Shown here piece after piece: positions 1,525-61,285 of a stretch of 64,000 bases of DNA. Both the position numbers and the translations under genes were made by a program. How positions within the stretch are numbered: position 1 is the stretch's first letter; each line of letters starts with the position of its first letter. Origin of the DNA: Candidatus Wolfebacteria bacterium GW2011_GWB1_47_1 (GTDB taxonomy: Bacteria; Patescibacteriota; Minisyncoccia; UBA6257; UBA9933); the NCBI GenBank assembly GCA_001029635.1, contig CP011209.1, forward strand, positions 811,969-875,968, given 5' to 3'. The notes beneath the pieces were generated by a model, which saw only the letters and a program-made list of their open reading frames with translations, was not told the origin of the DNA and searched no databases.

Positions 1525-1850
1525 ATCTGCGAGCTGTAAAGAAGCGATCAGAATGAACGCAAAAAATTCCCACAGAATCCGAGGTGCGGGGACCCGTTAA
1601 AAAACGGGCGCACCCTCGGACTCGTAAGGAATTTTTAAGGCCATTCCGCTTTTTTAGTTTGCTCGCAAGCTTTTTGGTACTTTTTCTGGAAAAAGTACAG
1701 GAGGCTAGATTCAGTCCGCTTCGCAGGAAAATGGATGCTCTGCGGACACTCTGGCGCGCTACACACTCGCTCCGCTCGTTAGCAACGCCAAGTTGCGCCC
1801 TTCGCGGGAATGACACCCCAAGGGTGTCACCACTCCTCGATCATTAGCAT
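1525..1850. repeat. MITE-like interspersed repeat, family A, copy 1. It is rearranged: the 3' module is inverted and placed before the 5' module.
   Basis: It starts with tctgcgagctgtaaa, the reverse complement of the family 3' end tttacagctcgcaga. It contains the gtactttttctggaaaaagtac hairpin and the ttagcaacgccaag core shared with the copies at 11021, 15950 and 34665. Confidence 0.6.
1796..1832. repeat. REP-like palindromic element, family R
   Basis: cgcccttcgcgggaatgacacc followed by the hairpin gacaccccaagggtgtc. Same family as 24228, 37541 and 55636. Confidence 0.5.
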
Positions 1851-5803: not shown

Positions 5804-5812
5804 ATTATTTTA

Positions 5813-6600: not shown

Positions 6601-6606
6601 ATTTTG

Positions 6607-7378: not shown

Positions 7379-7421
7379 TGCCGATAGTCGCGGACGATTA
7401 TTGGCAATGAATTCCAGGCGA

Positions 7422-7535: not shown

Positions 7536-7594
7536 TGACAACAATCGAAACGCATATACTATCACCAACCATTTTATTTTTTGGGTTACTTTGC

Positions 7595-10688
<3,094 letters not shown>

Positions 10689-11020: not shown

Positions 11021-11485
11021 CTTATTTCCGGCAGATGTCGAACTCATCTTTTTCGTACTTTTTTAATAAAGTACGGCAAAAATCGCGAGCGGAATAAAAA
11101 CGTGGGCTGAGTTCAAAAATTTCTTACAAAACGAGACATCGCCCATCTATTGATGGGACCCGGATGCCTCGTTTTTGAGGAAATTTTTATTACTCAGCTG
11201 ATCCACGTTTTTACATGCTCGCAGACTCGGATTGCGGGGGCATCTATTCATCCAGTGTACCCCTGTTCGCTGCCACAGGATGCGGGAATTTTTGCGCTCA
11301 TTCTGATCGCTTTTTTACAGCTCGCAGATTTAATAAGGCAAAAAATATCCCAGCCTAATCTTCTCTCTTGCCCTGCTTCGTCGGTGCCGTTGAATACATA
11401 CCGTCACCGACGCTCCGGCGCGTTGCACGCTCTCCCACTCTCCGAGTAAACGAATAGAGAGCGTTTCGCTAGCAACGCCTAGTTA
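11021..11485. repeat. MITE-like repeat, family A, copy 2. Composite or nested copy.
   Basis: Order of parts: the X-start hairpin gtacttttttaataaagtac, a Y-module (cgcgagcggaataaaaa...tttttacatgctcgcagac), a second partial Y end (ttttgcgctcattctgatcgcttttttacagctcgcagat), then the X-tail with cgctagcaacgcctag. Confidence 0.6.
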
Positions 11486-15883: not shown

Positions 15884-15949
15884 ATATTGGCTATAATATA
15901 CGAGAATTGTGGGGAAATCAAAAGGTTATTTTTATCCTCCCCATATCTC

Positions 15950-16155
15950 ACTCCCCGCAGATGCGGGATTTATCTTCTCCCTACTTTTTTAGTAGAAGTA
16001 GGGCAAAAAGCGCGAGCAAACTAAAAATAGGACTAGGCTCAAAAATCTCTGACAAAATTAAAAATCACCCGTTTAGCAACAGGACCCAGATTTTTAATTT
16101 TTATGGAGATTTTCTTCGCCCACTTAACCCTATTTTTTACAGCTCGCAAATGGAA
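15950..16155. repeat. MITE-like repeat, family A, copy 3. Short variant: X-start hairpin plus Y-module.
   Basis: cgcagatgcggg...ctacttttttagtagaagtaggg followed by gcgcgagcaaactaaaaatag...cccgttt...gacccagatttttaatttt...ttttcttcgccca...ttttttacagctcgcaaat. Confidence 0.6.
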
Positions 16156-16192
16156 TACAAAAAGAGGCGCGATGCGCCTCTTTCGCATTTTC

Positions 16193-19666: not shown

Positions 19667-20374
19667 TTACGGCATCTCCACAAAAACCTTGTTTCTGACG
19701 TTTTCAATCGCCTTACGCTGATTAATGATGATCGCTTCTATCGTCGATCTCGATCCAGGCGGAATGTCGCTCCCTACAGTGAATAGCAATGCTGCCTCAT
19801 CCGCCTTCTTCGTATCAAGTGCCTTCCCGTCGATAGTCCACTGGAGATTCAGTGTGCGCACATCCGTCGTATTAAAAAAGAATGGCCATGCATACATTGC
19901 GTTCTCGCCCCGCTCGATGCCCTTTTTAAAATAGGGCACATCAATGACCACTTCCGGCTTTCGTATCGGAATATCGAATGTCTTTTCATACAGCTTCCCG
20001 TTGTAGCTGGGGATCGTTATCTTTATCGATGAGACTCCTCCGCCATACTTCTTATTCACGATAATAACCCTCTTTATTCCCAATCCATTTAGCTCGTTCT
20101 TTACCAGCTTACCGTCCACATACCATCTAACCCCGGTTTGAGACAAATCCGCTATCTTCCCATCTTCGATAAGTTCAAAAGTGATTGTTATCGCGCTTTC
20201 ATGCGTCGGGAATGCGCGACCTTCATACCACGCAGGTACATACGTACGCGTCTGCCAGTTTGTCATGAACTCGGTTTCCGCATGCGCATGCGCAACTCCA
20301 CCCAATAGCACCACCATAGCTCCAACGACACCATACCAATATTTTTTTATATTCCGACGGGTTTTTTTCATCAT
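19667..20374 (-). CDS. Hypothetical secreted protein
   Basis: 235 aa with a signal peptide (MVVLLGGVAHAHA). Confidence 0.5.
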   Translation of the reverse strand: MMKKTRRNIKKYWYGVVGAMVVLLGGVAHAHAETEFMTNWQTRTYVPAWYEGRAFPTHESAITITFELIEDGKIADLSQTGVRWYVDGKLVKNELNGLGIKRVIIVNKKYGGGVSSIKITIPSYNGKLYEKTFDIPIRKPEVVIDVPYFKKGIERGENAMYAWPFFFNTTDVRTLNLQWTIDGKALDTKKADEAALLFTVGSDIPPGSRSTIEAIIINQRKAIENVRNKVFVEMP

Positions 20375-20397
20375 GCTTTTATAGTTAGATGCATTTC

Positions 20398-21012
20398 TTA
20401 TTCTCCCATTGCTATTTTACGACGTAGCTCTGCTGCTCGAATCTCATTCGACTCTCTTCTTTCGGCCATACGATCACCCACTCCACTTACCCTGCGCTGC
20501 GTAGGCATCTCCATACGCTGTCCAACCGCCGATGCATTTACCGTTACCACTTCCCTTCTTGCCGTTTCTGCGGTCGTTGCCGCTGTCTGAGCGCTTGCCG
20601 CAACGGTCGCGTTTCGCGCCGTAGCAGTTACAGCCCCTTTTCCTCTAGTTGCAATGATCTGCCCTGCAGGTCCCACGATCTTCTCGATCTTTTCTGAATT
20701 GTTGATCATCCAAATTCCGATCATTGTTGATATGGTCTTAATGGGCAATATCGTCCCCAGTATGCCATCTAAAACCCCCCCCAATGGTTGCACAATCAAT
20801 CGCTTGATCCCGACACCTCCGCGGAATATCATGTACATTTCCAATAGCGCAACCATTCCAATATTCATTATCTCAACCACCCCTATACCAGCTCCGAGCG
20901 TAACCAACAAAATAGCGACCTCAACAAGTTCTTCGATTCCTACAAGGAGTACGAGGAATATTGTTTCTGCCAGCCCGACTGTTTTTGTCTTTATTTCTTC
21001 GTCCATAGTCAT
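20398..21012 (-). CDS. Hypothetical multi-TM membrane protein, in the position of VirB3 or another T4SS inner-membrane component
   Basis: 204 aa with three hydrophobic helices. Directly downstream of VirB4. Confidence 0.45.
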   Translation of the reverse strand: MTMDEEIKTKTVGLAETIFLVLLVGIEELVEVAILLVTLGAGIGVVEIMNIGMVALLEMYMIFRGGVGIKRLIVQPLGGVLDGILGTILPIKTISTMIGIWMINNSEKIEKIVGPAGQIIATRGKGAVTATARNATVAASAQTAATTAETARREVVTVNASAVGQRMEMPTQRRVSGVGDRMAERRESNEIRAAELRRKIAMGE

Positions 21013-21027
21013 CGTTCGCTCCAGTCA

Positions 21028-22800
21028 TTACAATTTTCCTTCTTCCGCTATTTCCAATAGTTGCTCCGGATTTGTCGTTATGATCCGGTCCTCGAAATAG
21101 GACGGGATGATCTTGATCGCCACGTGCTTCATCCCCACAAGGAAAATCCCCTCTCCCACTCCCGCCGACAACACAAGACTCTTTTCCGCTTCACTGAGCG
21201 AAAAAGTCTTTGCAAGTGTTTCAATGCTCGATGGAGCCTGCTTCAATAGCAGCTGCAGCGACGAGTTCGATACAATCGGTACACCAAACGGCGAGTTCAT
21301 AAAGTCATCCACGTTCTGCGTAATCGTGGTCATTCCCAAGTAATATTTACGACATCGTTTTGCGAGTGCAAACAAGAACGACGCACTGTCTGCGTGCTTC
21401 ATCAAGACCCAAGCCTCATCGATGATCAGGATGCGCTTTTTCATCTCTGCGCGGATCAAATTCCAAATATAGCTCAGCATCATGTACATTGCGATTGGCC
21501 GTAACTCCTCTTCAAGATCGCGTGTCGAAAAGATCACCAACCGATTGTTGACATCCACATTCGTTGCCCGATTGGCAAACCCCGCATAAGTACCTTGGGT
21601 AAATTTGTACAGCTTCGCCGCCATACTCTTCCCTCCTTCCATGTTTTCCAAGACTGTCTGCAAATCGCTCAGTAATGGCGCTTCCAATGTCGAGAAATCC
21701 TTAATGTCACTCGTGATACCGCGCGATGCGTATGTTTCATTGATTGCTCGATCCAGCAGCGCATCTTCTTCCGGTGTGATCGCCCCCATCATCAGCTTGA
21801 GTAGGCCAACGATGTTCAAAATATGCGACTTGTACACATCGGCAGGGTCTTCTCCTTGCGGTACGACAGGGATATCCAACGGATTGATTGCCGTATCGGA
21901 TGTCAGCGATATCTTCAACAAGCTTCCTCCAACCGCATCGGCCAACTTTTGGTACTCGTTTTCCGGATCGATGACGATGACGTCAATGCCCATCATTAAC
22001 GAACGCAAAATTTCCAATTTTGTACCATACGATTTACCGGCACCGGATTTTGCGAATACCACCTGGTTCGCGTTTTCCAATGAGAATCGGTCAAAAATAA
22101 TCAACGAATTGTTATGCTGATTAATACCGTACAATACACCCTTATCTGACGTGAGGTCTTCCGATACGAATGGAAAAAATGACGAGATCGGACTCGTATT
22201 CAATGCAGTGTGGATCTGCAATTTGTCCTGCGCAATTGGTAATGTCGAAATAAATCCTTCAATATGTTGAAAGATCGACGGCTTCACATACACCATCTGA
22301 CTATCCAGCATTGACGTGATACGATCTTCCGCCCGCGCAAGCTCATCGACAGAATTCGCGTAGATCGTTATATATACCCCCACATCAAATAACTTCTCTT
22401 CCGCCTGCTGCAATTGATCGCGCAGGGCTTCGATATCCTGATATGCCGTTTCCAATGCCGGGTCTCGGACCAATCCTTTTTCATCACGCTCCGAAAGCTG
22501 CGCCTCTACCTGAGTCACTTTTCTTCGCAACTTCGATAGCGCCGCCGATGTATCGATCGGATGCACAAAAATGGAAATGTCTAGAAGATTTGGCAAATTA
22601 ATGATCACGTCAAACCACCCGGTCGACAGATATCGCGGATAGGTGAACACGAAAATCGTCTTTGCGTACGTATCTCCGAGTCTTATGTAATTAGGATTTG
22701 CTTCAAGCGCAGCAGGAGCGATGACATTCTTTACGTCGTCCCCCTCCTCATATGCCTGCGGTACGGTTATTTTTTCCATTTTTGTAGTTAGTGTTGTCAT
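21028..22800 (-). CDS. virB4: VirB4/TrbE/CagE-family type IV secretion ATPase, catalytic portion
   Basis: Walker A FAKSGAGKSYGT and Walker B LIIDEAW. 590-614 aa depending on start. Listed ORF reaches 22872 via GTG; the more plausible start is ATG 22798-22800 (MTTLTTK). A REP-like insertion lies at 22791-22875. Confidence 0.8.
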   Translation of the reverse strand: MTTLTTKMEKITVPQAYEEGDDVKNVIAPAALEANPNYIRLGDTYAKTIFVFTYPRYLSTGWFDVIINLPNLLDISIFVHPIDTSAALSKLRRKVTQVEAQLSERDEKGLVRDPALETAYQDIEALRDQLQQAEEKLFDVGVYITIYANSVDELARAEDRITSMLDSQMVYVKPSIFQHIEGFISTLPIAQDKLQIHTALNTSPISSFFPFVSEDLTSDKGVLYGINQHNNSLIIFDRFSLENANQVVFAKSGAGKSYGTKLEILRSLMMGIDVIVIDPENEYQKLADAVGGSLLKISLTSDTAINPLDIPVVPQGEDPADVYKSHILNIVGLLKLMMGAITPEEDALLDRAINETYASRGITSDIKDFSTLEAPLLSDLQTVLENMEGGKSMAAKLYKFTQGTYAGFANRATNVDVNNRLVIFSTRDLEEELRPIAMYMMLSYIWNLIRAEMKKRILIIDEAWVLMKHADSASFLFALAKRCRKYYLGMTTITQNVDDFMNSPFGVPIVSNSSLQLLLKQAPSSIETLAKTFSLSEAEKSLVLSAGVGEGIFLVGMKHVAIKIIPSYFEDRIITTNPEQLLEIAEEGKL

Positions 22801-22830
22801 TCCGTGCTTGACACGGAATCTTATTATTAG
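22791..22830. repeat. REP-like element, family R, at the VirB4 split site
   Basis: gtcattccgtgcttgacacggaatc hairpin, then caggatgacac at 22860-22870. Confidence 0.5.
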
Positions 22831-22875
22831 CCTTCCGATACGAGATTCTGAAACAAGTTCAGGATGACACACTTA

Positions 22876-23526
22876 TTATTTCTGTTTCGCGATTCCTATT
22901 CCCTTCTTCTCGGTTGCCGCAGGATTATATAAATTATAAAATAGTTCGATCAGCTCGGCATCATTTAATGTGACTGCGCGCAATCCGATTCCTGAAAGTC
23001 CCGTCGCAACGTGGTCGGCGCGCTGATTCAACTGTTCTATCTGTTCATTTAATGTCTTTTCGTCCTCCGTTTTCGTATCCTTTTTCTTTCCAAAAAATGG
23101 AATGCCGCTCATTATTCCTCCCGATGTCGGTAATCCAGCAGTGTCGTACGAAACCACAACAAAGAACGACTTGCCCATGATGTCGCTTTGTTCGACGAAT
23201 GACTTGATGAATTCGCCATATTCGGCGATCTGCTCTCGAAGCAATTCATTTTCCTCGTGTTCCTTGCGTTGTTCCAGCCCCTCCAAGTAGCCCTGAATAT
23301 TGAGTCTTCTCGAATGGACAATAATCTGCAGCGAAAAATCGAGTGAGTTTAAAAAGCTCTGGTATGCCTGTAAAATAATATTTTTATCCTCTTCGGATTT
23401 TAACGCAAAATTGATCCCACTTACCAGTAAGATCTTGCGCAATGAACCTCCCTTAAGAATCACCGTTCCCCTCTGTACCCGTTCTACATCTACAAATTGT
23501 TGCGTTGCCTGTGCTTCTACTGCCAT
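22876..23526 (-). CDS. VirB4 N-terminal-domain-like protein. It is in the same frame as virB4 and separated from it only by tandem TAA TAA.
   Basis: 216 aa, soluble. It ends AKQK with stop codon 22876-22878; the next codon 22873-22875 is also TAA; GTG at 22870-22872 is the listed virB4 ORF start. Confidence 0.5.
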   Translation of the reverse strand: MAVEAQATQQFVDVERVQRGTVILKGGSLRKILLVSGINFALKSEEDKNIILQAYQSFLNSLDFSLQIIVHSRRLNIQGYLEGLEQRKEHEENELLREQIAEYGEFIKSFVEQSDIMGKSFFVVVSYDTAGLPTSGGIMSGIPFFGKKKDTKTEDEKTLNEQIEQLNQRADHVATGLSGIGLRAVTLNDAELIELFYNLYNPAATEKKGIGIAKQK

Positions 23527-23624
23527 ATATCACGTATTATACACTAAGATTTGCCCTTTTGCATTCTCCCCATCCTTCTTTCTATCGATTAATTTTGCAA
23601 TTGATCAATCGTCCAATCAACTCT

Positions 23625-24175
23625 CTACCTAAAATCCACCCGTTTCGCCACCTCCTGCTCACCTGTCTGCCTTCTAAATATGCTCAGCTTTTCCGCAACT
23701 GCCGCAGGGATTGCCTTCTCGCGTTGCGGGATTGGATTCTTTCTTGTCGTAAGATCCGATGACAGCTTATTAATCGATGGCATTTGGGCAGTAAATTGCT
23801 TCAGCGTGTTTCTTTGGTCGATAATCTTTTCTTCAGGAACCGGTGCTGTTGTCGGTTTAATGTTTGCAAATTCCGGCACTTCAATCACGCGCTCCTTTAT
23901 TTCCCGCTTCCATAGATATAACCTTGGCTTCCAGAAGAATCCTACAGCCGCAAATGCAATGCGTGTCAGGGGCTGTCCGTTAACCTTTACCAGCGCCAAT
24001 GCAAGCGCCCCTCCGAGCGATATAAGCGCAACTATCGCACCTGCCAAAAAAGGCATCGTTGTAAACGCTAAAAATGCCACTACTCCTCCTCCAACCACGT
24101 ACAGCAACTGTCGTAACGAAAAAGGACCGGCGATTTTGTCTTCTATTTCAATAAATTGAGGTATTTGGAATTGCA
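23625..24175 (-). CDS. T4SS-associated small membrane protein (two TM)
   Basis: Start taken as MQFQIPQFIEIEDKIAGPFSLRQLLYVVGG. The longer listed ORF 23625-24350 begins inside REP copies. Confidence 0.45.
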
Positions 24176-24227
24176 TGGGTAGCTCGATAGCAAATAGCTT
24201 ATTAGCTCGTTGGTGGCATGTGGATAT

Positions 24228-24300
24228 TTTGTCATTCCGGCGGAGGCCGGAATTTATTTTGATCTGGACCCCGGCCTCCGCCGGGGTGACAATTTGGTCC
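24228..24300. repeat. REP-like elements, family R, tandem inverted pair
   Basis: tgtcattccggcggaggccggaat ... ccccggcctccgccggggtgacaa. Confidence 0.6.
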
Positions 24301-24306
24301 GATTTA

Positions 24307-25464
24307 TTACTTCTTATCCTGTACCCGCTCCAGCATCCGCAGGTCGACAATGTCGTCGTTTACCGGAATCTGCGCAAGTTGTGGTTCCTTCGCTGCGGGC
24401 GCTTGCTGAGCAACTACACCAACCCGTTGCGGCGTCTTCATTATCGTAGCTTCAGGAATCTTTGGCATCGATGCCATCGGCTTGCCCTCCTCCGGCATTG
24501 CCGGTACGGGAATGGCAACGGATGAGATCACTTCATTCTGCGCGCCAAGATCAACAACCCTTGGCTCAAAGTCTACCACATGCTCCTGCTTTGTCGTAGG
24601 GACGAATATCGGCTCTATACCCTTTTGTTGTGCCTGCTCTTGCTGGCCAAACATATCCTGAGGAGCCTTTGCACTCGTATAATGGACCACTTTCACCTCC
24701 TGTTGCGGTGTTTTTGCCACCTCCTCCGACTTCTTCCCCAACCCCTCAATCATACTTATCTGAGCCGTTACGGCAGGGCCTGCGGATTTTTGCTCCTGAT
24801 TACGCTTAAATCCAAATACTCCTCCAAATGAACTCAGCGGTCTTCTCTTTTGTGTCACCGGCACAAGATCAGCTTCGGCATGTATAATTGTCGGGGCCGG
24901 CATACCGACTCCATCTTCCGCTGCCCCCGTTGGGACACTTACATTCCTACCCATATCCCCTTCGATTCGCACCTTTCTTATTTCCACAGATGCTTCCTGC
25001 TCTTCCGTTACTATCGCAGGATTTATACGATCAGTCGCGATCATTGCAGGGGTTTGCGCAGTCGCCTCCCCGCTCGTTTGCGCTGCATTCTGCTCTCGTG
25101 CGGGCCCCTCCTCCGCCATAATAGCCGGACTTTCTCCTGATACATCCGCGCGTAACTTCAAAATTAACCCTTTAACCGGATCGAATATCCGTTTATCAAT
25201 TTGAAAAATGATCGGGTCGATCGCCTTTTGATCCATCCCCGGGATGGATTGCAATTCCTTTGCTAAGTCGTTGATATGAGTAAATCCAAGCAGTATGTTA
25301 CCCATAACTATCAATACCACATCAATAATTTCTTCCGACAATCCAGCGTCCTCGCATGCCTTCCATATAATTTCCCCATTATCCACAGAGAAAAAGGCCT
25401 CCTTAAGCTCGTCAGGCACCTGTCCCCATCGGTCATAGATTTGTTCGTTGGTCACTGTTTGCAT
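24307..25464 (-). CDS. Hypothetical protein with a low-complexity C-terminal half
   Basis: 385 aa. Lies between the VirB6-like gene and the small membrane protein. Confidence 0.45.
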   Translation of the reverse strand: MQTVTNEQIYDRWGQVPDELKEAFFSVDNGEIIWKACEDAGLSEEIIDVVLIVMGNILLGFTHINDLAKELQSIPGMDQKAIDPIIFQIDKRIFDPVKGLILKLRADVSGESPAIMAEEGPAREQNAAQTSGEATAQTPAMIATDRINPAIVTEEQEASVEIRKVRIEGDMGRNVSVPTGAAEDGVGMPAPTIIHAEADLVPVTQKRRPLSSFGGVFGFKRNQEQKSAGPAVTAQISMIEGLGKKSEEVAKTPQQEVKVVHYTSAKAPQDMFGQQEQAQQKGIEPIFVPTTKQEHVVDFEPRVVDLGAQNEVISSVAIPVPAMPEEGKPMASMPKIPEATIMKTPQRVGVVAQQAPAAKEPQLAQIPVNDDIVDLRMLERVQDKK

Positions 25465-25479
25465 TGCCGTTACTTTTGG

Positions 25480-27771
25480 TTATGCTTTTTTCTCTTCTTC
25501 CTTACTTGCCGTATACAAACGACTTGCCCCCGACTTTCTCATTGAATCCTGCATGCGCACTATATGTTGATAATCCTCAGACTCCTTCTTCATCGATGAG
25601 AAGTCCGCACTGTCCCGTGCATGCAACATCTTCATCTGCGCTTCGATATCATTTAGTACGCGTTCTCCTCCGAGATTCTTATATGCCTTTGCATCATGTT
25701 CTTCGATCCATGTCAGCATTTCCTTAATATCTTTTGTTTTCGCTATATCCTCATTTGTTGCCTTAAGCTCTTTCATAACCGAAACCAATTCTTTATTGGT
25801 TGCTCCGGCGATCTCAGCACCCTTCGTCGCCTTGATTCCGTCGATCACTCCCTGCTTTATTTCGGCACCAATCCCTTCTATCTTACCCATGAATTTTTTC
25901 ACCTCCGGACCCTTACCAATACCTTTCGTAAGAGAAGCGAGGGCACGTGGATCGTTCATCATTAATGACTGTAGCGCTTCCTTACCGTATTTGCCTTTAT
26001 CATAGAAATCAAATCCCAGAGCAACGCGATCCTTTTCGGCAAATGAATCAAAGAACTTCTTCGCCTCCTCCTGATACTTCTTCTTTGCACTTACAATAGC
26101 ATCTGTCTTGGCCACGCCTGGTGGCAATGCATTTGCTGCGTCAACGCCCTTTTGTGCGGTCAGCATCTCGGCATTCCTTCCTGCTGCCTTAGTTAGCTTT
26201 GCATATGCTCCTGCGCCACCAATGCCATCGAACTGCCCCTTAATGCCAGTCGCACCCGTGCTCATAATATCCGCATCAAGGATCTTTTCGTTGATCTTCC
26301 CTAGGTTGCCACCCTTAGCGAGCTGCTGTTGCGCAAAGAACTTCTCGTCGGTAGCCATGGTCGCATAGCGGCCGGCCAAGCTGTCGTCGGACATTCCCTT
26401 GAACTTCTCGTCGAATGCCTTCTTAAGCGCTGCCTGCTGCGATTGCGATATCGCCTGCCCTGCGCGTCCCAAAGCACCAGCAGTCCTCCCTTTGGCCCAA
26501 CCCATAACACCCGGCTTACGCTCCGCCTCCATCTTGCGTAGATCGGCCGCACTTACGCCATACTTCTTGGCAACATAGCCTGCCCCAGCAATGCCTGCTG
26601 CCGCGCCCCGCGCACCCATGCGGCGCGCTCCGCGTTCAGTCTCTCTGCGCACATATGCCTGCGTGCCCTTGCCCATCTTTTCGAGCCTCGCCTTACTCCA
26701 GCCAGACATATTACTGATCATGTCCTTGCTTCCTTTTGCTCCCTTCAAGCTGATGCTATTTGCCGCGATCAACGACATCATCATGAACATGATCGCCATG
26801 GCGGCCTGCACAACGGAACTCATCGTAAACAGAAGGCCATCTCCAAACGCATACGTTGCGTTGCCACCGCTACCGGCAGCTGTCGGAGCGGGATTATCGA
26901 ATGCATTTAGCGATGTTAGTGACAGCCACATGAAAAATATCATGACCGGTGGGAACATCGTCCATCGCACAAAGTCATTCCACCATTTGTCCCAATGACT
27001 ACGCGTTGACGGAAATATCCTGGAAACGAATACGATCGGTGTAAGCACCAGCAAAAATGTCAACGTAAAATACCGGATGAATAACATCGCCGCGATCGTC
27101 ATCATAATGACCGATGCGATAAGCGTGAAGATGATAATGAACACCATACTTCCGATAATGCTCAATATCCCTGATCCGAATTTGTCCATTGCTCCCGCAA
27201 TGCTTGTAGCTCCGCTTTTTGTACTCAAAAATCCTGAAATATCAAACCCACTCGCGAGCGCAGACGTTATATTCCCTCCCGACAATCCAGACTGCTGTAC
27301 AAAAAACTCGGTCACCATTCCTGAAAAATCAATCAGCACTCCAGGAATCACCAAACTGAAGTTCACAAGAAGTGAAATGACGATCAGAGGCACTAATGCC
27401 TTCTTCATGCCGTATGACTCAAAATTCAGCATCGTCGCAAATGCGATGACGATCAACGCTATTACGAGCGCCAGATCTGCTACGTTTACGAATACCGTCC
27501 ACCCCTTAAAGAGAAATACGTTCTTTGCCGGATCCAATATTGTATTATTCAGATTCATGCCCAGTTCGATGAACGAACCTCCAAGCATAAAGAACTTCTG
27601 GGCAACCCAAGTAAAAATTACTAAAATAGCCTGACTCGCCTTGGTGATTACGGACGTCCCTAAAGAATCAATATATCCCGCCACCTGTGCGTATGTAAAC
27701 TGCGTAAGCGCGATTTCAAAAATCGCGCTTACAAGTCCGATTAAAAGAATTTTTTTATAGATCGATTTCAT
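25480..27771 (-). CDS. VirB6/TrbL-like polytopic membrane protein with a long hydrophilic C-terminal tail
   Basis: 763 aa. At least 6 TM helices in the N-terminal 350 aa, then a charged Ala/Lys/Gly-rich tail, typical of TrbL/VirB6-type components. Confidence 0.6.
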   Translation of the reverse strand: MKSIYKKILLIGLVSAIFEIALTQFTYAQVAGYIDSLGTSVITKASQAILVIFTWVAQKFFMLGGSFIELGMNLNNTILDPAKNVFLFKGWTVFVNVADLALVIALIVIAFATMLNFESYGMKKALVPLIVISLLVNFSLVIPGVLIDFSGMVTEFFVQQSGLSGGNITSALASGFDISGFLSTKSGATSIAGAMDKFGSGILSIIGSMVFIIIFTLIASVIMMTIAAMLFIRYFTLTFLLVLTPIVFVSRIFPSTRSHWDKWWNDFVRWTMFPPVMIFFMWLSLTSLNAFDNPAPTAAGSGGNATYAFGDGLLFTMSSVVQAAMAIMFMMMSLIAANSISLKGAKGSKDMISNMSGWSKARLEKMGKGTQAYVRRETERGARRMGARGAAAGIAGAGYVAKKYGVSAADLRKMEAERKPGVMGWAKGRTAGALGRAGQAISQSQQAALKKAFDEKFKGMSDDSLAGRYATMATDEKFFAQQQLAKGGNLGKINEKILDADIMSTGATGIKGQFDGIGGAGAYAKLTKAAGRNAEMLTAQKGVDAANALPPGVAKTDAIVSAKKKYQEEAKKFFDSFAEKDRVALGFDFYDKGKYGKEALQSLMMNDPRALASLTKGIGKGPEVKKFMGKIEGIGAEIKQGVIDGIKATKGAEIAGATNKELVSVMKELKATNEDIAKTKDIKEMLTWIEEHDAKAYKNLGGERVLNDIEAQMKMLHARDSADFSSMKKESEDYQHIVRMQDSMRKSGASRLYTASKEEEKKA

Positions 27772-34557: not shown

Positions 34558-34664
34558 AAGTATGGTATCGCTTTCTCTTTTGTGTTCTCTATCTTACCTA
34601 ACTATTACTCCGTTGTCATCCTTCATGATTACTATTCAACCTCAACTGCGCTAACGCTATTATG

Positions 34665-34975
34665 CCCGCAGATGCGAGCTCATCTTTTTCGTACTTTTTT
34701 AGTAAAAGTACGGCCGTCGGCTCCGTGCAGGAAAAAATACTACGCCGACATGCCGGCACGTTGCATGCGATCCGTCAGCTCGCGGATCGCTAGCAACGCC
34801 AAGGCTCAAAGCGCGAGCAAAGTAAAAATAGAGAGTGGACTCTAAAATTTCTTACAAAACTAAAAATTACCCGTTTTCCCAACGGGACCCAGATTTTTAG
34901 TTTTTGATGAAATTTTCTTCGCCCATCTAATCTCTATTTTTACAGCTCGCAGATAAAATGCGCTTCAGCACTTTC
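34665..34975. repeat. MITE-like repeat, family A, copy 4. Most complete, taken as the canonical copy.
   Basis: gcagatgcgagctcatc...gtacttttttagtaaaagtac...cgctagcaacgccaagg...gcgcgagcaaagtaaaaatag...cccgttttcccaacgggacccagatttttag...ttttcttcgccca...tttttacagctcgcagata. The ends are imperfect inverted repeats (cagatgcgagct / agctcgcagat). Confidence 0.65.
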
Positions 34976-35119
34976 AATATAAAAATAAAAGCCATATCCA
35001 ACATGCGTGGTACAGCTTTATTGCTTGCGGATATCCCTCCGCTGAGTCCTACCTAATTTACCTTTCTACTGCTTTACATCATCAATGACTAAGAGGTGGC
35101 GTTTTATGGTACAGCCTTA

Positions 35120-35584
35120 CTACTTAACAAATAGTACGTTGGACGAGAGCCATACCGCATTCTCGCTCCAATACTCCTCAAATGCTTCTTGAGACTCGGT
35201 CCACTCGTCCATCGCCTGCATGTACTCTTCTTCGAGTTCTCCCATGAGCGCAAGTAGGGCCTTGTCTCTGGCGTGAAACCTGATCGCATTCCCCGCCTCT
35301 TCCACAACGATCCCGTTTGGGAGTAATACGAACAGGCTTGAATTAAAGAGTACTCCTGGGAGAGCGTTTTCGACCTCCGCTGCTACTTCGTCGAAGTAGC
35401 CGTCTTCATTTACTTCCAGAATCTCGTACGCCTTTTTATTGAGGTACGAGCGCTCCGCCTGGGTGATATTCCCAAACAAGAGTTTCTTCCCAATCCCACA
35501 TAATCTCCTGATCTTTTCCTGGATTGCGGCTGGTGCGTCTTCAAACTTCCTATCACTCCTAAAATATTCCTCAAACGTTTTCAT
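35120..35584 (-). CDS. Hypothetical protein
   Basis: 154 aa acidic ORF. No family recognised. Confidence 0.45.
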   Translation of the reverse strand: MKTFEEYFRSDRKFEDAPAAIQEKIRRLCGIGKKLLFGNITQAERSYLNKKAYEILEVNEDGYFDEVAAEVENALPGVLFNSSLFVLLPNGIVVEEAGNAIRFHARDKALLALMGELEEEYMQAMDEWTESQEAFEEYWSENAVWLSSNVLFVK

Positions 35585-35790
35585 ACTGCCTCCTCTTTCC
35601 TTTAAGATTTAACAGCGCATTTCTCTGCTGCTCCCAATGAGCAGCAGAGAAAATGACTGCCAAATCCCGCATGTGGTTTTCAATGTTCTTGTTATATTTA
35701 TATCATAATTATTATAAATTGTCAATGTCTTCGCTTGAAGGGGGTGCCCTGGACCTCATCCTTCGCCGAAATGAAATGACAGATAAAAAA

Positions 35791-35815
35791 ATGTACGTCA
35801 TCGGATGACGTACAT
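35791..35815. promoter_or_regulatory. Perfect 25 bp palindrome ATGTACGTCAT-CGG-ATGACGTACAT, copy 3
   Basis: Identical to the 5779-5803 copy. Intergenic, between a hypothetical gene and comM. Confidence 0.6.
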
Positions 35816-35985
35816 TTTAAACTATAGATCCCTCGGTTCCGTTCCACTCCGCTTCACTCGAGATGACACACTCCGTCATTCCGAGCTCGGCCCTCGGCGT
35901 TACTAGCGAGTGCAGCGAGTATGCAACGTGCCAAAATACTCGAGGCACATAAGGTCCCGCGCTTCGCATGTCGAGGAATCTGCTT

Positions 35986-37540: not shown

Positions 37541-37572
37541 TAGAAAAACTGGATTCCGGCCTCCGCCGGAAT
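37541..37572. repeat. REP-like element, family R
   Basis: ctggattccggcctccgccggaatgacacagaaaac. Confidence 0.6.
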
Positions 37573-37586
37573 GACACAGAAAACTC

Positions 37587-39218: not shown

Positions 39219-39382
39219 GTTGGTTGGATTGGGGAGTAAATACGGGGATGTTTATATTCTTTCCCTCTGTTCGTAGTCTGCCGTGCCCACAGCCGAATCG
39301 CGCCGCCTACTAGCGGCTGCGATTCTATGAGGCACACAAACGCAAAACCGACATTCATTCGAATGTCGGTTTTGCGTTTGTG

Positions 39383-39454
39383 TGCCCCCAAGGAGAATCG
39401 GACTCCTCTTTACAGGATGAAAACCTGTTGTCCTGACCACTAGACGATGGGGGC
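39383..39454 (-). tRNA. tRNA-Glu (anticodon UUC)
   Basis: GCCCCCATCGTCTAGTGGTCAGGACAACAGGTTTTCATCCTGTAAAGAGGAGTCCGATTCTCCTTGGGGGCA. It has a 7 bp acceptor stem, a TTTTCAT anticodon loop and a GTCCGATTC T-loop. Confidence 0.8.
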
Positions 39455-39463
39455 GCATGTAAT

Positions 39464-39718
39464 TTACTTTATATCAAATCCTAGCTTAGTTAGCAATTCT
39501 TTTCTCGTTTGATAGCTTCTTTTTAATTGCAATTCCCGTTTTCTTGCCTCTGATTTTATGACGTAGTTTTCTGTATACTTCAAAATAAACAGGATTCTAT
39601 GTTTTATTGACTTAGTCTTTCCCGAATTATGCTCCTTTAACCTTTTATCAACATTATCGGTTATGCCAATATAATACCCAAAATCAATCGTGCTTTGCAA
39701 AATGTATAGAAAATACAT
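39464..39718 (-). CDS. GIY-YIG nuclease-domain protein (YhbQ/UPF0213-like)
   Basis: 84 aa: MYFLYILQS...GYYIGITDNVDKRLKEHNSG, which is the GIY...YIG...R...E...N catalytic motif series. No strong SD. Confidence 0.7.
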   Translation of the reverse strand: MYFLYILQSTIDFGYYIGITDNVDKRLKEHNSGKTKSIKHRILFILKYTENYVIKSEARKRELQLKRSYQTRKELLTKLGFDIK

Positions 39719-39766
39719 AAATGATTTTAAAGGATGCCCGCCGAAGGCGGGTCCGCTCTCTGGCGG

Positions 39767-39803
39767 AAAAACCTGTTGTCCTAACCATTAGACGATGGGA
39801 GCT
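39767..39803 (-). pseudogene. 5' half-copy of tRNA-Glu, ending in the anticodon loop
   Basis: GCTCCCATCGTCTAATGGTTAGGACAACAGGTTTT matches positions 1-35 of the adjacent tRNA-Glu, with 3 mismatches in the first 35 nt. It then diverges into the hairpin ccgccagagagcggacccgccttcggcgggc. Confidence 0.6.
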
Positions 39804-48313: not shown

Positions 48314-48323
48314 AGAGATTTTC

Positions 48324-48446
48324 GCACAAACGCGAACCGACACCGCTGATTCCAACTGTCATCGAAGTAGTTCAGGTTCAGGTTGCGGTTCCTGTCATCG
48401 CAGTTGAGTACCAGCACGTTCAGGTTGCCGTTCGGGTTCTGCCATT
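48324..48446 (-). repeat. DGR template repeat (TR)
   Basis: 123 bp repeated at 48824-48946 (the VR). About 23 mismatches, every one at a position that is A on the minus (sense) strand of the TR. The minus-strand TR codes ...NCDDRNRNLNLNYFDDSWNQRCRFAFVRK and is rich in AAC codons. Confidence 0.85.
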
Positions 48447-48815: not shown

Positions 48816-49400
48816 TTACTTGCGCACAAACGCGAACCGACACCGCTGAAACCAACTGACATCGAAGTAGTACAGGAACAGGCGGCGGTGCCTGCCATCG
48901 CAGCCGAGCACCAGCACGAACAGGAAGCCGCCCGGGCTCTGCCAAGGTTTGTGCAGGAACACGATCGGAGCATTGCGCTGTTCCTCGGGATACTGCTCAC
49001 CAAAGAATAGCGCATCTTCGTACAGAGGGCGCTCCAATCCCTGGCGCTGTGCTTCGACGAGTACTTCTTCGGACCCGGGATCATGATCGAATTCCAGGAA
49101 CACGATCTCGCGGGGTCCTTCGGGCATGGGCCGCATCGGGAAGTTCTTGCCGTTGACCATGTCATTCGTCCAGCCATAGTTGCCGGCTTCAATGACTTCG
49201 TCGGTTGTGCGGGTACCCCCGGTCATGATACGAAATGCATTCCTAGCCTGCTGGAGACACATCATAAAAGCATCGACGAACATACCGACTGCCGACACTC
49301 CGCCTTTTTCGATGACCGATTCGATATCCGCCTCGGTCACGCCTTTTTTCTCCAGTTCCGGACCAACATGCTCATCGATGAACGCTCCAAGCTTTGCCAT
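48816..49400 (-). CDS. DGR target protein; the last 41 codons are the variable repeat (48824-48946)
   Basis: 194 aa. AAGGAG RBS. C-terminus ...VLVLGCDGRHRRLFLYYFDVSWFQRCRFAFVRK, versus ...LVLNCDDRNRNLNLNYFDDSWNQRCRFAFVRK in the TR. The IMH-like invariant 27 nt cgcacaaacgcgaaccgacaccgctga is at its 3' end. Confidence 0.75.
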   Translation of the reverse strand: MAKLGAFIDEHVGPELEKKGVTEADIESVIEKGGVSAVGMFVDAFMMCLQQARNAFRIMTGGTRTTDEVIEAGNYGWTNDMVNGKNFPMRPMPEGPREIVFLEFDHDPGSEEVLVEAQRQGLERPLYEDALFFGEQYPEEQRNAPIVFLHKPWQSPGGFLFVLVLGCDGRHRRLFLYYFDVSWFQRCRFAFVRK

Positions 49401-51944: not shown

Positions 51945-52016
51945 TGCCCTCACGGAGAATCGAACTCCGATTTATAGGATGAGAACCTATTGTCCTAACC
52001 ATTAGACGATGAGGGC
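51945..52016 (-). tRNA. tRNA-Glu (CUC)
   Basis: GCCCTCATCGTCTAATGGTTAGGACAATAGGTTCTCATCCTATAAATCGGAGTTCGATTCTCCGTGAGGGCA. Confidence 0.8.
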
Positions 52017-52162
52017 GTTGCACGAAACATGGGACACGGAAAATGAAAAATGGCCCCAAAATGCCTTTCTACATTATCGTATCAGGATAAAAAAATCAAC
52101 ATTTTTATAGGCTCTGGATCCCCCCCACACCGGAGATGGCGCGGGGACATACTTGTGGACTG

Positions 52163-52200
52163 GAATGACGGGATACTGGATTTCCGCCTTCGCGAGAATG
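52163..52200. repeat. REP-like element, family R
   Basis: actggatttccgccttcgcgagaatgacaaaacgg. Confidence 0.5.
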
Positions 52201-60690: not shown

Positions 60691-60886
60691 AGATACAATG
60701 CGTACTTTGCTATTACTATCATTATACAATATTCCCCTTTTTTTTGCACCCTCGGCAAACATAAAAGACGCTCCGTGCGTCTCTTTCTGTCCCCTTATCG
60801 ATCACAATACTACCGAGCAACGACATCAACACGTTGTTACACATCACCAAAAACGTCTACAGTAAACTAACTAATTTCTAACGAGG

Positions 60887-60960
60887 TGGACCCAACAGGA
60901 TTCGAACCTGTGACCTCTCGAATGTGAATCGAACGCTCTAACCAACTGAGCTATGAGTCC
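60887..60960 (-). tRNA. tRNA-Val (CAC)
   Basis: GGACTCATAGCTCAGTTGGTTAGAGCGTTCGATTCACATTCGAGAGGTCACAGGTTCGAATCCTGTTGGGTCCA. Confidence 0.75.
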
Positions 60961-61285
60961 TTTTGCTATGTATTTTTAAAACCGCCTCAACCTACGCTAC
61001 CCGCAGGGTTCTAACTACCGCCTCGCTTTTGAACATATGCTCGGCGGCATCCCGGCACGTTGCACGTTCGTTTCACTCACTAGGCAGCGCGCGCGGAAAA
61101 ATAATGCGCGCCCTGCATTTCGTCGCGTTGCACACTCTCCGCCTATGGCGGATCCTTAGCAACGACACAAAGTCACAACGCCGAGGGTCAACTGAGCTAA
61201 GCGACCTCTTTATTCGTGTTTCCAGTATATACGATTTTCTTATATTTTCAACAAAAAAGAGGGCGGATTCCCGCCCCCCGCTGTG

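What the first reader, a model, noticed from the sequence alone, without database searches (positions are those of the whole stretch)
34665..34975. MITE-like roughly 300 bp interspersed repeat, family A: at least 4 copies plus fragments, all intergenic
Copies occur at 34665-34975 (canonical), 1525-1850, 11021-11485 and 15950-16155, with fragments at about 61040-61200. They share an imperfect terminal inverted repeat (cagatgcgagct ... agctcgcagat). There is an internal hairpin gtacttttttagtaaaagtac and a core cgctagcaacgcc. A second module runs from gcgcgagcaaa(c/g)taaaaa through cccgtt..gggacccagatttttag and ttttcttcgccca to tttttacagctcgcag. No transposase is present. Copies sit next to terminators and gene ends, and all overlapping ORFs look spurious. 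These could be non-autonomous elements or a structured sRNA family.
Basis: seen in the sequence. Interest (0 to 1): 0.6.

Follow-up and report, generated by a model that had tools for sequence, protein, structure and literature searches.

The report
Mosaic of mobile hairpin repeats
The "300 bp repeat" is real, but it is a patchwork of at least two unrelated small hairpin-forming, gene-less DNA elements that have inserted next to and into each other between the genes of a tiny-genome groundwater bacterium (Candidatus Wolfebacteria); this is a new family of a well-known kind of selfish repeat.

Summary
The repeats exist at the stated coordinates and far exceed chance (covariance-model E 1e-26 to 1e-31). 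They are not copies of one ~300 bp unit bounded by the proposed inverted repeat. They are a mosaic:

- **LH:** a 21-nt mini-hairpin plus a ~140-nt long hairpin, usually preceded by a small GTCATTCC-type palindrome.
- **X:** an independent ~92-105-nt two-hairpin element that carries the "cgctagcaacgcc core".

The "canonical" copy is an LH element with an X inserted in its linker.

Both kinds behave as mobile DNA. The orthologous gaps at 15.9-16.2 kb and 11.0-11.5 kb lack LH and X in close relatives. LH copies about 90% identical lie in unrelated contexts, one about 270 kb away on the same contig. One X sits precisely inside another X with no target duplication, and strains differ at that site.

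X lies after ..TTG, inside loops of other hairpins. Five of six independent insertions share one orientation, with the target strand on the inferred lagging-strand template. This pattern resembles IS200/IS605-type single-strand transposition, but no transposase was found in ~124 kb.

LH shows strong covariation (24 of 50 pairs compensated). No Rfam family, promoter or terminator matches. Verdict: a new family of a known kind; moderate interest.

The parts
34665..34686 (+). Copy A: small 5' hairpin (P, a degenerate S-type palindrome), cccgcAGATGcgagctCATCT
   Evidence: Read directly; aligned with the equivalent pieces of copies B and C.
34691..34711 (+). Copy A: mini-hairpin hp (gtacttttttagtaaaagtac)
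   Evidence: A motif scan of ~230 kb found hp only beside LH, although it recovered only part of the known hp.
34714..34806 (+). Copy A: X element nested in the hp-LH linker. Its left-end-first strand is the window - strand. Left flank on that strand is ..GCTTTG^
   Evidence: Alignment A1 shows ~100 extra nt in A only; X HMM hit 34708-34810, E 1.5e-21; flanks.
34812..34951 (+). Copy A: long hairpin LH (GCGAGCAAAGTAAAAA ... TTTTTACAGCTCGCA)
   Evidence: CM R1 135.6 bits, E 4.9e-29; fold z-score about -7.5 for the whole copy on either strand.
15926..16159 (+). Copy B: the complete block (S/P hairpin 15953-15967, hp 15981-16002, LH 16011-16148, tail aaatggaataca). It is missing from the gaps of relatives and is flanked by CAAAAG (15919-15924) and CAAAAAG (16158-16164)
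   Evidence: Comparison with L018, which also carries an LH, and with LH-free L019, L020 and L142; CM 124.9 bits.
11031..11223 (+). Copy C: P hairpin (11031-11049), hp (11055-11074), LH subtype C1 (11084-11223)
   Evidence: 144.3 bits. The whole cluster is absent between the same gene and the rRNA promoter in L020 and L019.
11226..11329 (+). Copy C: leftover 3' arm of a D-type LH, interrupted by 48 unrelated nt at 11234-11281, directly 3' of the complete C1 hairpin
   Evidence: 92% identity to 1525-1574; partial HMM hit covering model positions 100-149.
11380..11484 (+). Separate X element next to the terminator of the 204-aa gene
   Evidence: X HMM E 4.8e-19; sequence.
1528..1698 (-). Copy D: hp (1677-1698) plus LH of subtype D (1528-1667), inverted relative to copies A-C
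   Evidence: CM 142.5 bits; about 90% identical to L136/L008 and L010 copies in unrelated contexts.
1714..1794 (+). X element inserted into an S-type palindrome (remnant gcgcccttcgcgggaatgac, 1795-1814) downstream of valS
   Evidence: X HMM E 2e-21; flanks.
61017..61188 (+). Site E: X element E1 (61017-61083 plus 61176-61188) with a second X (E2, 61084-61175) inserted exactly at GGCGTTG^CTAG (read on the - strand), with no target duplication
   Evidence: The strain variant L024/L025 carries an uninterrupted E1 copy; X HMM hits.
61189..61199 (+). Direct repeat of the tRNA-Val D-arm segment (caactgagcta). The other copy is 60943-60953, inside the tRNA-Val gene at 60885-60960(-). Strains L024/L025 carry one extra 155-bp unit between such repeats
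35889..35984 (-). X element F, the only X in the opposite orientation, inserted in an S-type palindrome just after the yifB stop codon
   Evidence: X HMM E 1.4e-19; sequence.

Best explanation
The region holds a mosaic of independently inserting, non-autonomous, hairpin-forming DNA repeats in Candidatus Wolfebacteria bacterium GW2011_GWE1_48_7.

**Element LH.** An AT-rich 21-nt mini-hairpin (hp) and an A-rich linker (consensus CAAAAAGC) are followed by a ~140-nt imperfect hairpin. The hairpin has invariant islands:
- the GCGAGC/GCTCGC base;
- TAAAAA/TTTTTA;
- AAAATTYCTTAC / GRRAWATTTT;
- the apical CCCRT..AYGGG stem with an ACCC bulge.

Between these islands the helices co-vary. LH usually sits just 3' of a small GTCATTCC-type palindrome (S or P), in the gap between a terminator and the next promoter. 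New LH copies tend to land in or beside resident ones and leave a stranded 3' arm.

**Element X.** X is 92-105 nt, with a conserved palindromic core (GGCGTTGCTAG..hairpin..TGCAACGYGCC) near one end and a variable hairpin with a T-rich loop at the other. It inserts without target duplication immediately 3' of ..TTG, preferentially into loops of other hairpins. These include S palindromes, a tRNA D-arm-like sequence, another X, and the LH linker.

**Inferred mechanism.** Both are moved in trans by an enzyme encoded elsewhere in the ~1 Mb genome. For X this is most likely a single-strand-specific HUH/Y1 transposase of the IS200/IS605-RAYT type, acting on hairpins at the replication fork. For LH the hairpin itself is the recognised or propagated structure, which would explain arm-to-arm covariation.

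**Shown versus inferred.** Shown: repeat families, structures, presence/absence in relatives, nested insertion, absence of a target duplication at E2, orientation bias. Inferred: the enzyme, the single-stranded intermediate, and present-day activity.
For: **Family and structure.**
- LH has 9 distinct loci with CM E 1e-25 to 1e-31.
- Of 50 consensus pairs, 93.7% of cells are paired and 24 pairs show changes on both sides. None of 500 shuffles reached this. Register-slid controls reach at most 54% paired (7-sequence version).
- Within the D subtype, a G-C pair appears as T.C in one copy and T-A in another.

**Mobility of LH.**
- The HK-PBP2 gap is 309 bp with LH in the window and 366 bp in L018 (90% PBP2), where the LH is a different subtype plus a stranded B-type 3' arm.
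- The same gap is 72, 78 and 157 bp, with no LH, in L019, L020 and L142.
- The whole 11021-11484 cluster is absent upstream of the 23S promoter in L020 and L019.
- The yifB-pcrA gap is 66 bp in L012 against 1428 bp here.
- D-type copies ~90% identical lie after valS (window), after ftsH (L136/L008), after rpoC (L140, same contig, ~270 kb away) and in L010.
- Three independent cases show hp, a complete LH, then the 3' arm of another subtype (window C, L010, L018).

**Mobility of X.**
- There are 7 copies (E1 and its nested E2 counted separately) in the ~84 kb of contiguous sequence, and one in relative L015 at a position that has no X in the window.
- E2 interrupts E1 exactly between G and C of GGCGTTG^CTAG. 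An uninterrupted E1 is present in strains L024/L025, which are 99.97% identical in the flanks.
- The left flank ends in TTG in 6 of 8 copies and in G in all 8. The hosts are hairpin loops.
- Five of six independent insertions (six of seven copies counting E1 and E2 separately) have the target-bearing strand on the window - strand. That strand is G-rich (GC skew -0.18 on +) and carries most genes, so it is the inferred lagging-strand template.

**Negative evidence for a gene-like RNA.**
- No Rfam hit even at E<=10 on the isolated elements.
- No internal sigma-70-like promoter or terminator.
- LH occurs in both orientations relative to neighbouring genes.
Against: - No transposase, RAYT, TnpB or integrase was seen in the Pfam tables for most of the ~124 kb of this organism or close strains, or among ten unannotated ORFs. 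Window 44.6-53.4 kb has no Pfam table, and the rest of the genome could not be searched.
- Only one X insertion (E2) has boundaries fixed by an empty allele. The TTG rule rests on 8 copies whose left ends are partly ambiguous: H, D and C share AACT(T/A)G, which could belong to the element.
- The LH block at site B is flanked by CAAAAG/CAAAAAG. This could be a 6-bp target duplication, and its ends show a weak 11-nt inverted repeat. That fits a classical DDE-type MITE better than an HUH mechanism.
- Whole-length covariation with conserved internal loops is more than a transposase footprint normally requires. It would also fit a functional RNA.
- Exact-pattern scans found no LH in 185,579 GTDB species representatives, so the family looks narrow. 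This limits comparative power.
Confidence: 0.62

Rival explanations
1. The LH composite (S/P + hp + LH + tail) is a conventional MITE: a deletion derivative of an insertion sequence, cut and pasted by a DDE transposase that recognises short terminal inverted repeats and makes a ~6-bp target duplication. The long hairpin would be internal cargo.
For: - At site B the inserted block is flanked by CAAAAG and CAAAAAG, where empty alleles have a single copy.
- Its ends (GTTATTTTTATCC ... GGAATACAAAAAG) form a weak 11-nt inverted repeat.
- L140 is bounded by CTTTTG ... CTTTTTG, with TGTATTC / GGAATGC-type ends that resemble the S half-site TGTCATTCC.
Against: - This rests on one clean and one suggestive case. 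Copies A and D lack the GGAATACA tail.
- The repeat CTTTTG is also simply the end of a terminator T-tract.
- A DDE footprint does not explain compensatory change along all ~65 bp of both arms, or the repeated pattern of a complete LH plus a stranded 3' arm.
- No parent IS with these ends was found.
Confidence: 0.2
2. LH and/or X are functional RNA modules, such as RNase III or stability elements in read-through transcripts, or small RNAs. They spread by duplication and are kept for their RNA structure, so mobility is secondary.
For: - Fold z-scores are -6 to -8.
- 24 of 50 pairs co-vary, and conserved unpaired islands are shared by all subtypes.
- The X core helix is conserved with two compensated positions.
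- The gene-sense strand folds slightly better in most copies.
Against: - No Rfam family matches.
- There is no internal promoter or terminator, and the elements sit between a terminator and the next promoter.
- LH occurs in both orientations relative to genes.
- Orthologous positions in close relatives do without them.
- Truncated and nested copies are common.
- The strand asymmetry of folding is small (0-12 kcal/mol, with a tie for D). It is expected anyway from the strong GC skew, because G.U pairs accumulate on the G-rich strand.
Confidence: 0.13
3. The copies arose by local segmental duplication and gene conversion of intergenic DNA, not by transposition.
For: Four LH loci cluster within 35 kb of the window, while the next ~50 kb has none. 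Strains differ by a 155-bp tandem duplication at site E.
Against: - Flanks of the copies share no similarity.
- One copy is ~270 kb away on the same contig, and others are in different genomic contexts.
- Insertions have sharp edges against empty alleles.
Confidence: 0.04

Closest known systems
IS200/IS605-derived palindrome-associated transposable elements (PATEs) and the related REP/REPIN-RAYT system
   Same: For X:
- about 100 nt, with no ORF and no terminal inverted repeat;
- an imperfect hairpin near each end;
- insertion without target duplication 3' of a short specific sequence (..TTG);
- strong orientation bias, with the target strand on the inferred lagging-strand template;
- preference for single-stranded or hairpin DNA.

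For S and LH: extragenic palindromes, doublets that form longer hairpins (an S doublet in L141), and arms that co-evolve.
   Different: - No Y1/HUH transposase or RAYT gene was found in the ~124 kb examined.
- There is no conserved GTAG-type 5' tetranucleotide.
- The right-end hairpin of X abuts the end, rather than lying ~10 nt inside as in IS608.
- LH is a single 140-nt hairpin with conserved internal loops, not two short REPs.
- There is no sequence similarity to any described family.
BIMEs (bacterial interspersed mosaic elements) of enterobacteria
   Same: The clusters are built from a small set of short extragenic palindromic modules in variable order and orientation, located between a terminator and the next promoter. 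The mosaic differs between close relatives.
   Different: - The modules, and the phylum (Patescibacteria/CPR), are unrelated.
- One module here (LH) is four times longer than a REP.
- Nesting of one module inside another is demonstrable here.
- Binding of IHF, gyrase or Pol I, which is part of the BIME description, is untested.
Long-palindrome bacterial MITEs: Correia elements (Neisseria), ERIC/IRU (enterobacteria), RUP/BOX (Streptococcus)
   Same: These are 100-150-nt imperfect palindromes, non-coding and intergenic. They are polymorphic between strains and able to fold as long RNA or DNA hairpins.
   Different: - Correia elements have 26-bp terminal repeats and a TA duplication. LH has no fixed duplication and heterogeneous outer ends.
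- There is no sequence similarity.
- LH shows subtype-level compensatory change along the whole stem.
- Copy number appears modest (4 loci in 84 kb).
Integron attC sites
   Same: Imperfect palindromes of 60-140 nt whose structure, not sequence, is conserved, and which are recombined as folded single strands. A 154-aa ORF plus element is present here but absent in relative L012.
   Different: - There are no R''/R' boxes (RYYYAAC/GTTRRRY).
- There is no cassette array and no intI nearby.
- Elements are dispersed and occur in both orientations.
- This option was considered and rejected.

Membership tests
MITE (generic bacterial miniature inverted-repeat transposable element) | Small (<~500 bp), with no coding capacity | tested here: met
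   The LH block is ~235 bp and X is 92-105 nt. Only stop-interrupted or spurious frames cross them. Two spurious ORFs over LH copies exist in public annotation (P0241, P0242).
MITE (generic bacterial miniature inverted-repeat transposable element) | Multiple interspersed copies with unrelated flanks, and presence/absence polymorphism at orthologous sites | tested here: met
   There are 9 LH loci and 8 or more X copies. Sites B and C lack LH and X in relatives, site A lacks the whole 1.4-kb variable segment in L012, and an X in L015 has no counterpart in the window.
MITE (generic bacterial miniature inverted-repeat transposable element) | Terminal inverted repeats that coincide with the ends of the inserted DNA | tested here: inconclusive
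MITE (generic bacterial miniature inverted-repeat transposable element) | Target-site duplication of fixed length | tested here: inconclusive
   LH site B shows CAAAAG/CAAAAAG, a possible 6-bp duplication that is also a terminator T-tract. X at E2 shows none.
MITE (generic bacterial miniature inverted-repeat transposable element) | A cognate autonomous IS with the same ends in the genome or in relatives | not testable with these tools
   No transposase was found in the parts of the ~124 kb that have annotation. The rest of the 984-kb genome could not be fetched.
IS200/IS605-type PATE (for element X) | Subterminal imperfect hairpins at both ends, with no terminal inverted repeat | tested here: met
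   The core hairpin GGCGTTGC..GCAACGYGCC lies 5-9 nt from one end, and a variable second hairpin lies at the other end, in all 8 copies.
IS200/IS605-type PATE (for element X) | Insertion 3' of a specific tetra- or pentanucleotide without target duplication | tested here: met
   E2 gives the exact junction GGCGTTG^...^CTAG with no duplication. Left flanks are CTTTG, CGTTG, AGTTG, CGTTG, ACTTG and ACTTG in 6 of 8 copies, and the other two end in G. The sample is small, and the boundaries of three copies are ambiguous.
IS200/IS605-type PATE (for element X) | Orientation bias: active strand on the lagging-strand template | tested here: met
   Five of six independent insertions (six of seven copies counting E1 and E2 separately) are in one orientation. 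GC skew is -0.15 to -0.22 across the window and most genes are on the - strand. The replication direction is inferred from skew, not known.
IS200/IS605-type PATE (for element X) | A Y1 (HUH) TnpA in the same genome that recognises the hairpins | not testable with these tools
   None was found in the sequence held. The scans of the genome and metagenome collections were already spent on DNA patterns.
REP / REPIN-RAYT | Palindromes of 20-40 nt with a conserved GTAG-type 5' motif, often as inverted doublets, and a RAYT gene flanked by REPs | tested here: inconclusive
   S palindromes of 26 nt exist: GTCATTCC occurs 11 times against 2.5 expected, and there is an inverted doublet in L141. There is no GTAG motif, and no RAYT was seen.
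Any Rfam RNA family | Covariance-model score at or above the family's gathering threshold | tested here: not met
   There is no hit in the element regions at gathering threshold or at E<=1 on the whole window. Only noise (at most 16.7 bits, E of 5 or more) appears on the isolated elements.
Integron attC | R''-L''...L'-R' boxes with GTTRRRY, cassette arrays, and a neighbouring intI | tested here: not met
   LH ends are GCGAGC../..GCTCGC, with no GTT/AAC boxes. The copies are dispersed, and no integrase appears in the Pfam tables.

The most novel reading that the evidence does not exclude
The 140-nt LH hairpin is not just cargo. It could be a functional single-stranded nucleic-acid module specific to these CPR bacteria. 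Its invariant internal loops and apical CCCRT..AYGGG-ACCC motif sit between co-varying helices. One possibility is an RNA or ssDNA guide or handle for a so far unrecognised recombinase that mobilises it, analogous to bridge, seek or omega RNAs. Another is a domesticated RNA element that shapes transcript processing in a genome with few classical regulators.
Probability: 0.1. Interest if true: 0.8.

Novelty: new member of a known kind. Interest (0 to 1): 0.4.

Why it matters
Candidate Phyla Radiation bacteria have ~1 Mb genomes. Showing that one carries at least three families of small hairpin repeats gives concrete markers for strain typing and assembly checking in groundwater metagenomes. These repeats are gained, lost, nested and replaced between strains and sister species.

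It also offers a natural test case for single-strand (replication-coupled) transposition in an uncultivated lineage.

For annotation, public records already carry 'hypothetical proteins' (P0241, P0242) that are merely translations of these repeats.

The unusually complete covariation of the long hairpin is worth one follow-up experiment or transcriptome check. Otherwise the finding belongs to the familiar MITE/REP/BIME class.

Tried and rejected
- **Rfam.** Searches at gathering threshold, at E<=1 on the whole window, and at E<=10 on isolated elements found nothing.
- **LH pattern scans.** The pattern GCGAGCNNANTAAAAN{95,125}ACAGCTCGC gave only 4 chance hits in GTDB species genomes. It gave 2 real hits (L008, L010) and 2 chance hits in JGI metagenomes, and none in IMG/VR.
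- **X-core pattern scan.** A scan of IMG/VR gave 109 chance hits, none confirmed by HMM.
- **Pseudo-protein searches.** A pseudo-protein translated from copy C gave no hit in the 5.8-billion-protein index. The same trick with copy D against 1.84 billion representatives did work.
- **Literature.** Two full-text searches for MITEs or repeats in CPR/Patescibacteria found nothing relevant.
- **Strand of function.** I counted G.T against A.C mismatches and compared RNA folding energies of the two strands. The differences are small, subtype-dependent and explained by GC skew.
- **Internal signals.** No internal promoter or terminator was found. The U-tract after the reverse-complemented LH is separated from the stem, and its orientation relative to genes is inconsistent.
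- **Neighbouring ORFs as possible transposases.** The 154-aa, 135-aa, 204-aa, 74-aa and other ORFs have no Pfam or NCBIfam domains.
- **Rejected identities.** I considered integron attC, retron msd, SRP/6S-like RNA and CRISPR, and rejected them on anatomy.
- **valS disruption.** I considered that the valS ORF was truncated by copy D. The 707-aa ValS ends with its anticodon-binding domain and is called intact in all strains.
Full report
**Context**

The window is dense bacterial DNA with 46.5% G+C. Most genes lie on the - strand, and GC skew on the + strand is uniformly -0.15 to -0.22. It carries a 23S-5S pair without 16S and ten scattered tRNAs.

Proteins identify the organism as Candidatus Wolfebacteria bacterium GW2011_GWE1_48_7, a member of the Candidate Phyla Radiation. 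Its longest public contig is 984 kb. Near-identical contigs (>=99.9% at the loci compared) occur in several groundwater metagenomes.

Yes, in substance. Profile and covariance models give E-values of 1e-19 to 1e-31.

Reading and aligning the loci shows that they are not four copies of one 300-bp unit. There are four recurrent modules:

| Module | Description |
|---|---|
| P/S | A small hairpin. It is a degenerate form of a 26-nt palindrome GTCATTCC(C/G)G..C(G/C)GGAATCC that also occurs on its own. |
| hp | A 21-nt AT-rich mini-hairpin, GTACTTTTT..AAAAAGTAC. |
| LH | A ~140-nt long hairpin, from GCGAGCAAASTAAAAA to TTTTTACAGCTCGCA. |
| X | A 92-105-nt element holding the 'cgctagcaacgcc core'. 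|

A motif scan of the ~230 kb held found hp only next to LH, although it recovered only part of the known hp. I therefore treat hp and LH as one element.

X is separate:
- It is missing from copy B.
- It sits inside the hp-LH linker in copy A.
- It sits 55 nt outside the hairpin cluster in copy C.
- It is inverted relative to LH in copy D.
- It stands alone at 61017-61188 and 35889-35984.

At the one site with clean empty alleles it is not the edge of the insertion.

**LH is a structurally constrained hairpin**

Nine distinct LH loci were assembled:
- A, B, C1 and D in the window;
- L140 on the same JGI contig, ~270 kb away;
- two on L136/L008, whose LH-derived pseudo-ORF carries the same organism name in public records as that of L140;
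- L010;
- L018, from a sister species.

They fall into subtypes that differ extensively in the middle of both arms, yet 93.7% of pair cells remain Watson-Crick or G.U. Twenty-four of 50 pairs show changes on both sides. No shuffle of 500 reaches the observed values, and sliding the partner by one to three columns drops pairing to 32-54% (seven-sequence version).

Conserved islands shared by all subtypes:
- the GCGAGC/GCTCGC base;
- TAAAAA/TTTTTA;
- AAAATTYCTTAC opposite GRRAWATTTT;
- the apical CCCRT..AYGGG stem with a 3' ACCC bulge.

Within the closely related D subtype, one pair is G-C in the window copy, T.C in L010 and T-A in L136.

Neither strand is clearly favoured. G.T exceeds A.C in the D subtype only. 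RNA folding energies differ by 0-12 kcal/mol, in a direction that simply follows the G-rich strand.

**LH comes and goes between relatives**

*Site B.* This is the gap between the histidine kinase (16193-17512) and PBP2 (14009-15883).

| Source | PBP2 identity | Gap | Content |
|---|---|---|---|
| Window | - | 309 bp | Terminator, LH, hp, P, promoter |
| L018 | 90% | 366 bp | Insertion at the same position; a different LH subtype followed by the stranded 3' arm of a B-type LH |
| L019 | 87% | 72 bp | No LH |
| L020 | 80% | 78 bp | No LH |
| L142 | 81% | 157 bp | No LH |

In L020 the terminator T-tract runs straight into the TTGATT -35 box. The inserted block (15926-16159) is flanked by CAAAAG and CAAAAAG. 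This may be a 6-bp target duplication or just the terminator tail.

*Site C.* The whole cluster 11021-11484 is missing in L020 and L019. Their sequence rejoins the window at the rRNA promoter at 96% identity.

*Site A.* L012 (91% PcrA) has 66 bp between yifB and pcrA, against 1428 bp here. L141 (92%) has the 154-aa ORF homologue but carries an inverted doublet of S palindromes where the window has LH-X-hp-P.

No LH was detected in the 11-22 kb stretches examined from each of L012, L015, L019, L020, L141 and L142.

In three independent places (window C, L010, L018) a complete hp-LH is followed directly by the 3' arm of a different subtype. At site B the window still holds the intact older copy, so the L018 state looks like replacement. 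The simplest reading is insertion of a new element into a resident LH, followed by loss of the duplicated 5' part. This is inference.

**X behaves like a target-specific insertion element**

Eight copies were aligned in a common orientation. Each has three parts:
- a 5-9-nt leader;
- a conserved palindromic core (GGCGTTGCTAG .. TGCAACGYGCC) enclosing an optional inner hairpin;
- a second hairpin of free sequence with a T-rich loop, which reaches the other end.

*Exact boundaries.* At site E, strains L024/L025 are 99.97% identical in the flanks and carry an uninterrupted element E1. The window's E1 is split exactly at GGCGTTG^CTAG by a 92-nt X (E2, 61084-61175), with no duplicated base. The same strains also differ by one 155-bp unit bounded by repeats of the tRNA-Val D-arm segment. 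Rearrangement at this site is therefore recent.

*Target.* The flank preceding the leader ends in TTG in six of eight copies and in G in all eight. Three boundaries are ambiguous, because AACT(T/A)G could belong to the element.

*Hosts.* These are loops of other hairpins:
- S palindromes (copies D and F, and H in L015, where the window has an intact S);
- a tRNA D-arm-like sequence (E1);
- the X core itself (E2);
- a CCAGTG..CACTGG hairpin (G);
- the LH linker (A).

*Orientation.* Five of six independent insertions (E1 and its nested E2 counted once) have the target-bearing strand on the - strand. This is the G-rich strand that carries most genes, and hence the inferred lagging-strand template.

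Absence of duplication, a short specific 5' target, hairpins at both ends, no inverted termini, and a replication-linked orientation are the hallmarks of IS200/IS605-type single-strand transposition and its non-autonomous derivatives. This comparison rests on established knowledge of IS608 and ISDra2.

**What is missing**

No transposase or recombinase of any class appears in the precomputed Pfam tables for most of the ~124 kb of this organism or close strains, or in direct scans of unannotated neighbours. Window 44.6-53.4 kb has no Pfam table.

The remaining ~860 kb could not be retrieved. The enzyme is therefore inferred.

**RNA alternative**

- Rfam has nothing.
- No promoter or terminator lies inside the elements, and they occupy the transcriptionally quiet gap between a terminator and the next promoter.
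- LH is found in both orientations relative to neighbouring genes: reverse-complement in sense for A, B, C1 and L018, and forward in sense for D, L140 and L136a.
- Sister species lack the elements at the same positions.

I therefore rank an RNA-gene reading low. The completeness of the covariation keeps a structural function of the folded strand (DNA or RNA) open.

**Comparison with known systems**

Functionally, the ensemble is closest to enterobacterial BIME mosaics built from REP-like modules. X is closest to IS200/IS605-derived PATEs and REP/RAYT substrates. LH is closest to long-palindrome MITEs such as Correia or ERIC elements.

Membership in any named family fails on sequence. Several defining features (cognate enzyme, fixed duplication, terminal repeats) are untested or inconclusive. 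I file it as a new family of a known kind, in a phylum where full-text searches found no such description.

**Verdict**

- The interpretation 'MITE-like, non-autonomous' is partly supported.
- The 'one family with terminal inverted repeats' part is not supported.
- Interest is moderate (0.4). The behaviour is expected for bacterial selfish repeats. The setting is a ~1 Mb CPR genome. The precise X-in-X insertion and the fully co-varying 140-nt hairpin make it a good small system for follow-up.

Noticed in passing
window 37553-37576(-), 24230-24253(+), 1795-1814, 35875-35882, 52162-52169; also L020 15013-15038, L015 6860-7130, L141 ~2075-2140: A third repeat family (S): ~26-nt palindromes GTCATTCC(C/G)G..C(G/C)GGAATCC. 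GTCATTCC occurs 11 times in the window against 2.5 expected. S is found in several Wolfebacteria relatives, sometimes as inverted doublets (L141). It serves as an insertion target for X and, in L015, for a further 36-nt hairpin. It resembles REP/REPIN or Neisseria dRS3-type repeats.
   Followed up: partly
window 60943-61090 versus L024/L025 7574-7876: Strain polymorphism: otherwise 99.97% identical strains carry an extra 155-bp tandem unit. The unit comprises the 5' 18 nt of tRNA-Val, ~95 nt, and an uninterrupted X. It is bounded by repeats of the tRNA D-arm segment CAACTGAGCTA. Upstream of tRNA-Val lies a pseudo-5' tRNA fragment, GGTCGCTTAGCTCAGTTG.
   Followed up: partly
window 39382-39800: An 84-aa GIY-YIG ORF (39464-39718, - strand) sits between tRNA-Glu(ttc) (39382-39454) and a 32-nt repeat of part of that tRNA (39768-39799, 94% identical to 39420-39451). 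A similar segment occurs in tRNA-Glu(ctc) at 51984-52011. This looks like a small homing-endonuclease-type insertion beside a tRNA gene. A GIY-YIG ORF also sits inside the type IV secretion cluster of relative L142.
   Followed up: no
window 35788-35818(-), 5778-5814, 6575-6603; L015 8681-8712: A 29-36-nt hairpin, AAAATGTACGTCATCCGATGACGTACATTTT, recurs as a terminator-like element after several genes and is conserved after yifB in relative L015. It is either a shared terminator motif or another small repeat.
   Followed up: no
window 34558-35985: The yifB-pcrA gap is a variable hotspot. It is 66 bp in L012. In the window it is 1428 bp, with a 154-aa ORF of unknown function (35120-35584, no Pfam or NCBIfam hit) plus repeats. 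L015 has a different 231-aa ORF on the other strand. L141 has two ORFs, one homologous to the 154-aa ORF.
   Followed up: partly
window 7413-10666: The 23S (7685-10666) and 5S (7413-7528) rRNA genes are on the - strand, with a strong TTGACA-N16-TATACT promoter at 10927-10900. There is no 16S gene upstream, so the rRNA operon is split. The pre-23S leader is 96% identical in relative L020.
   Followed up: no
window 48320-48444 and 48820-48944: A 125-bp direct repeat (83% identity), 500 bp apart, in a region of short overlapping ORFs. It is unrelated to LH or X.
   Followed up: no
L136 10001-10243 and L140 10001-10177 (public proteins KKU36726.1 etc. and KKU42500.1 etc.): Two 'hypothetical proteins' (80 and 58 aa) in public Wolfebacteria annotations are translations across LH repeats, so they are annotation artefacts.
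   Followed up: yes
window 19667-27771: A type IV secretion / conjugation-like cluster (PrgI, TraC-like, VirB4/TraG-type ATPase, TrbL-like) is conserved in order in all relatives examined.
   Followed up: no
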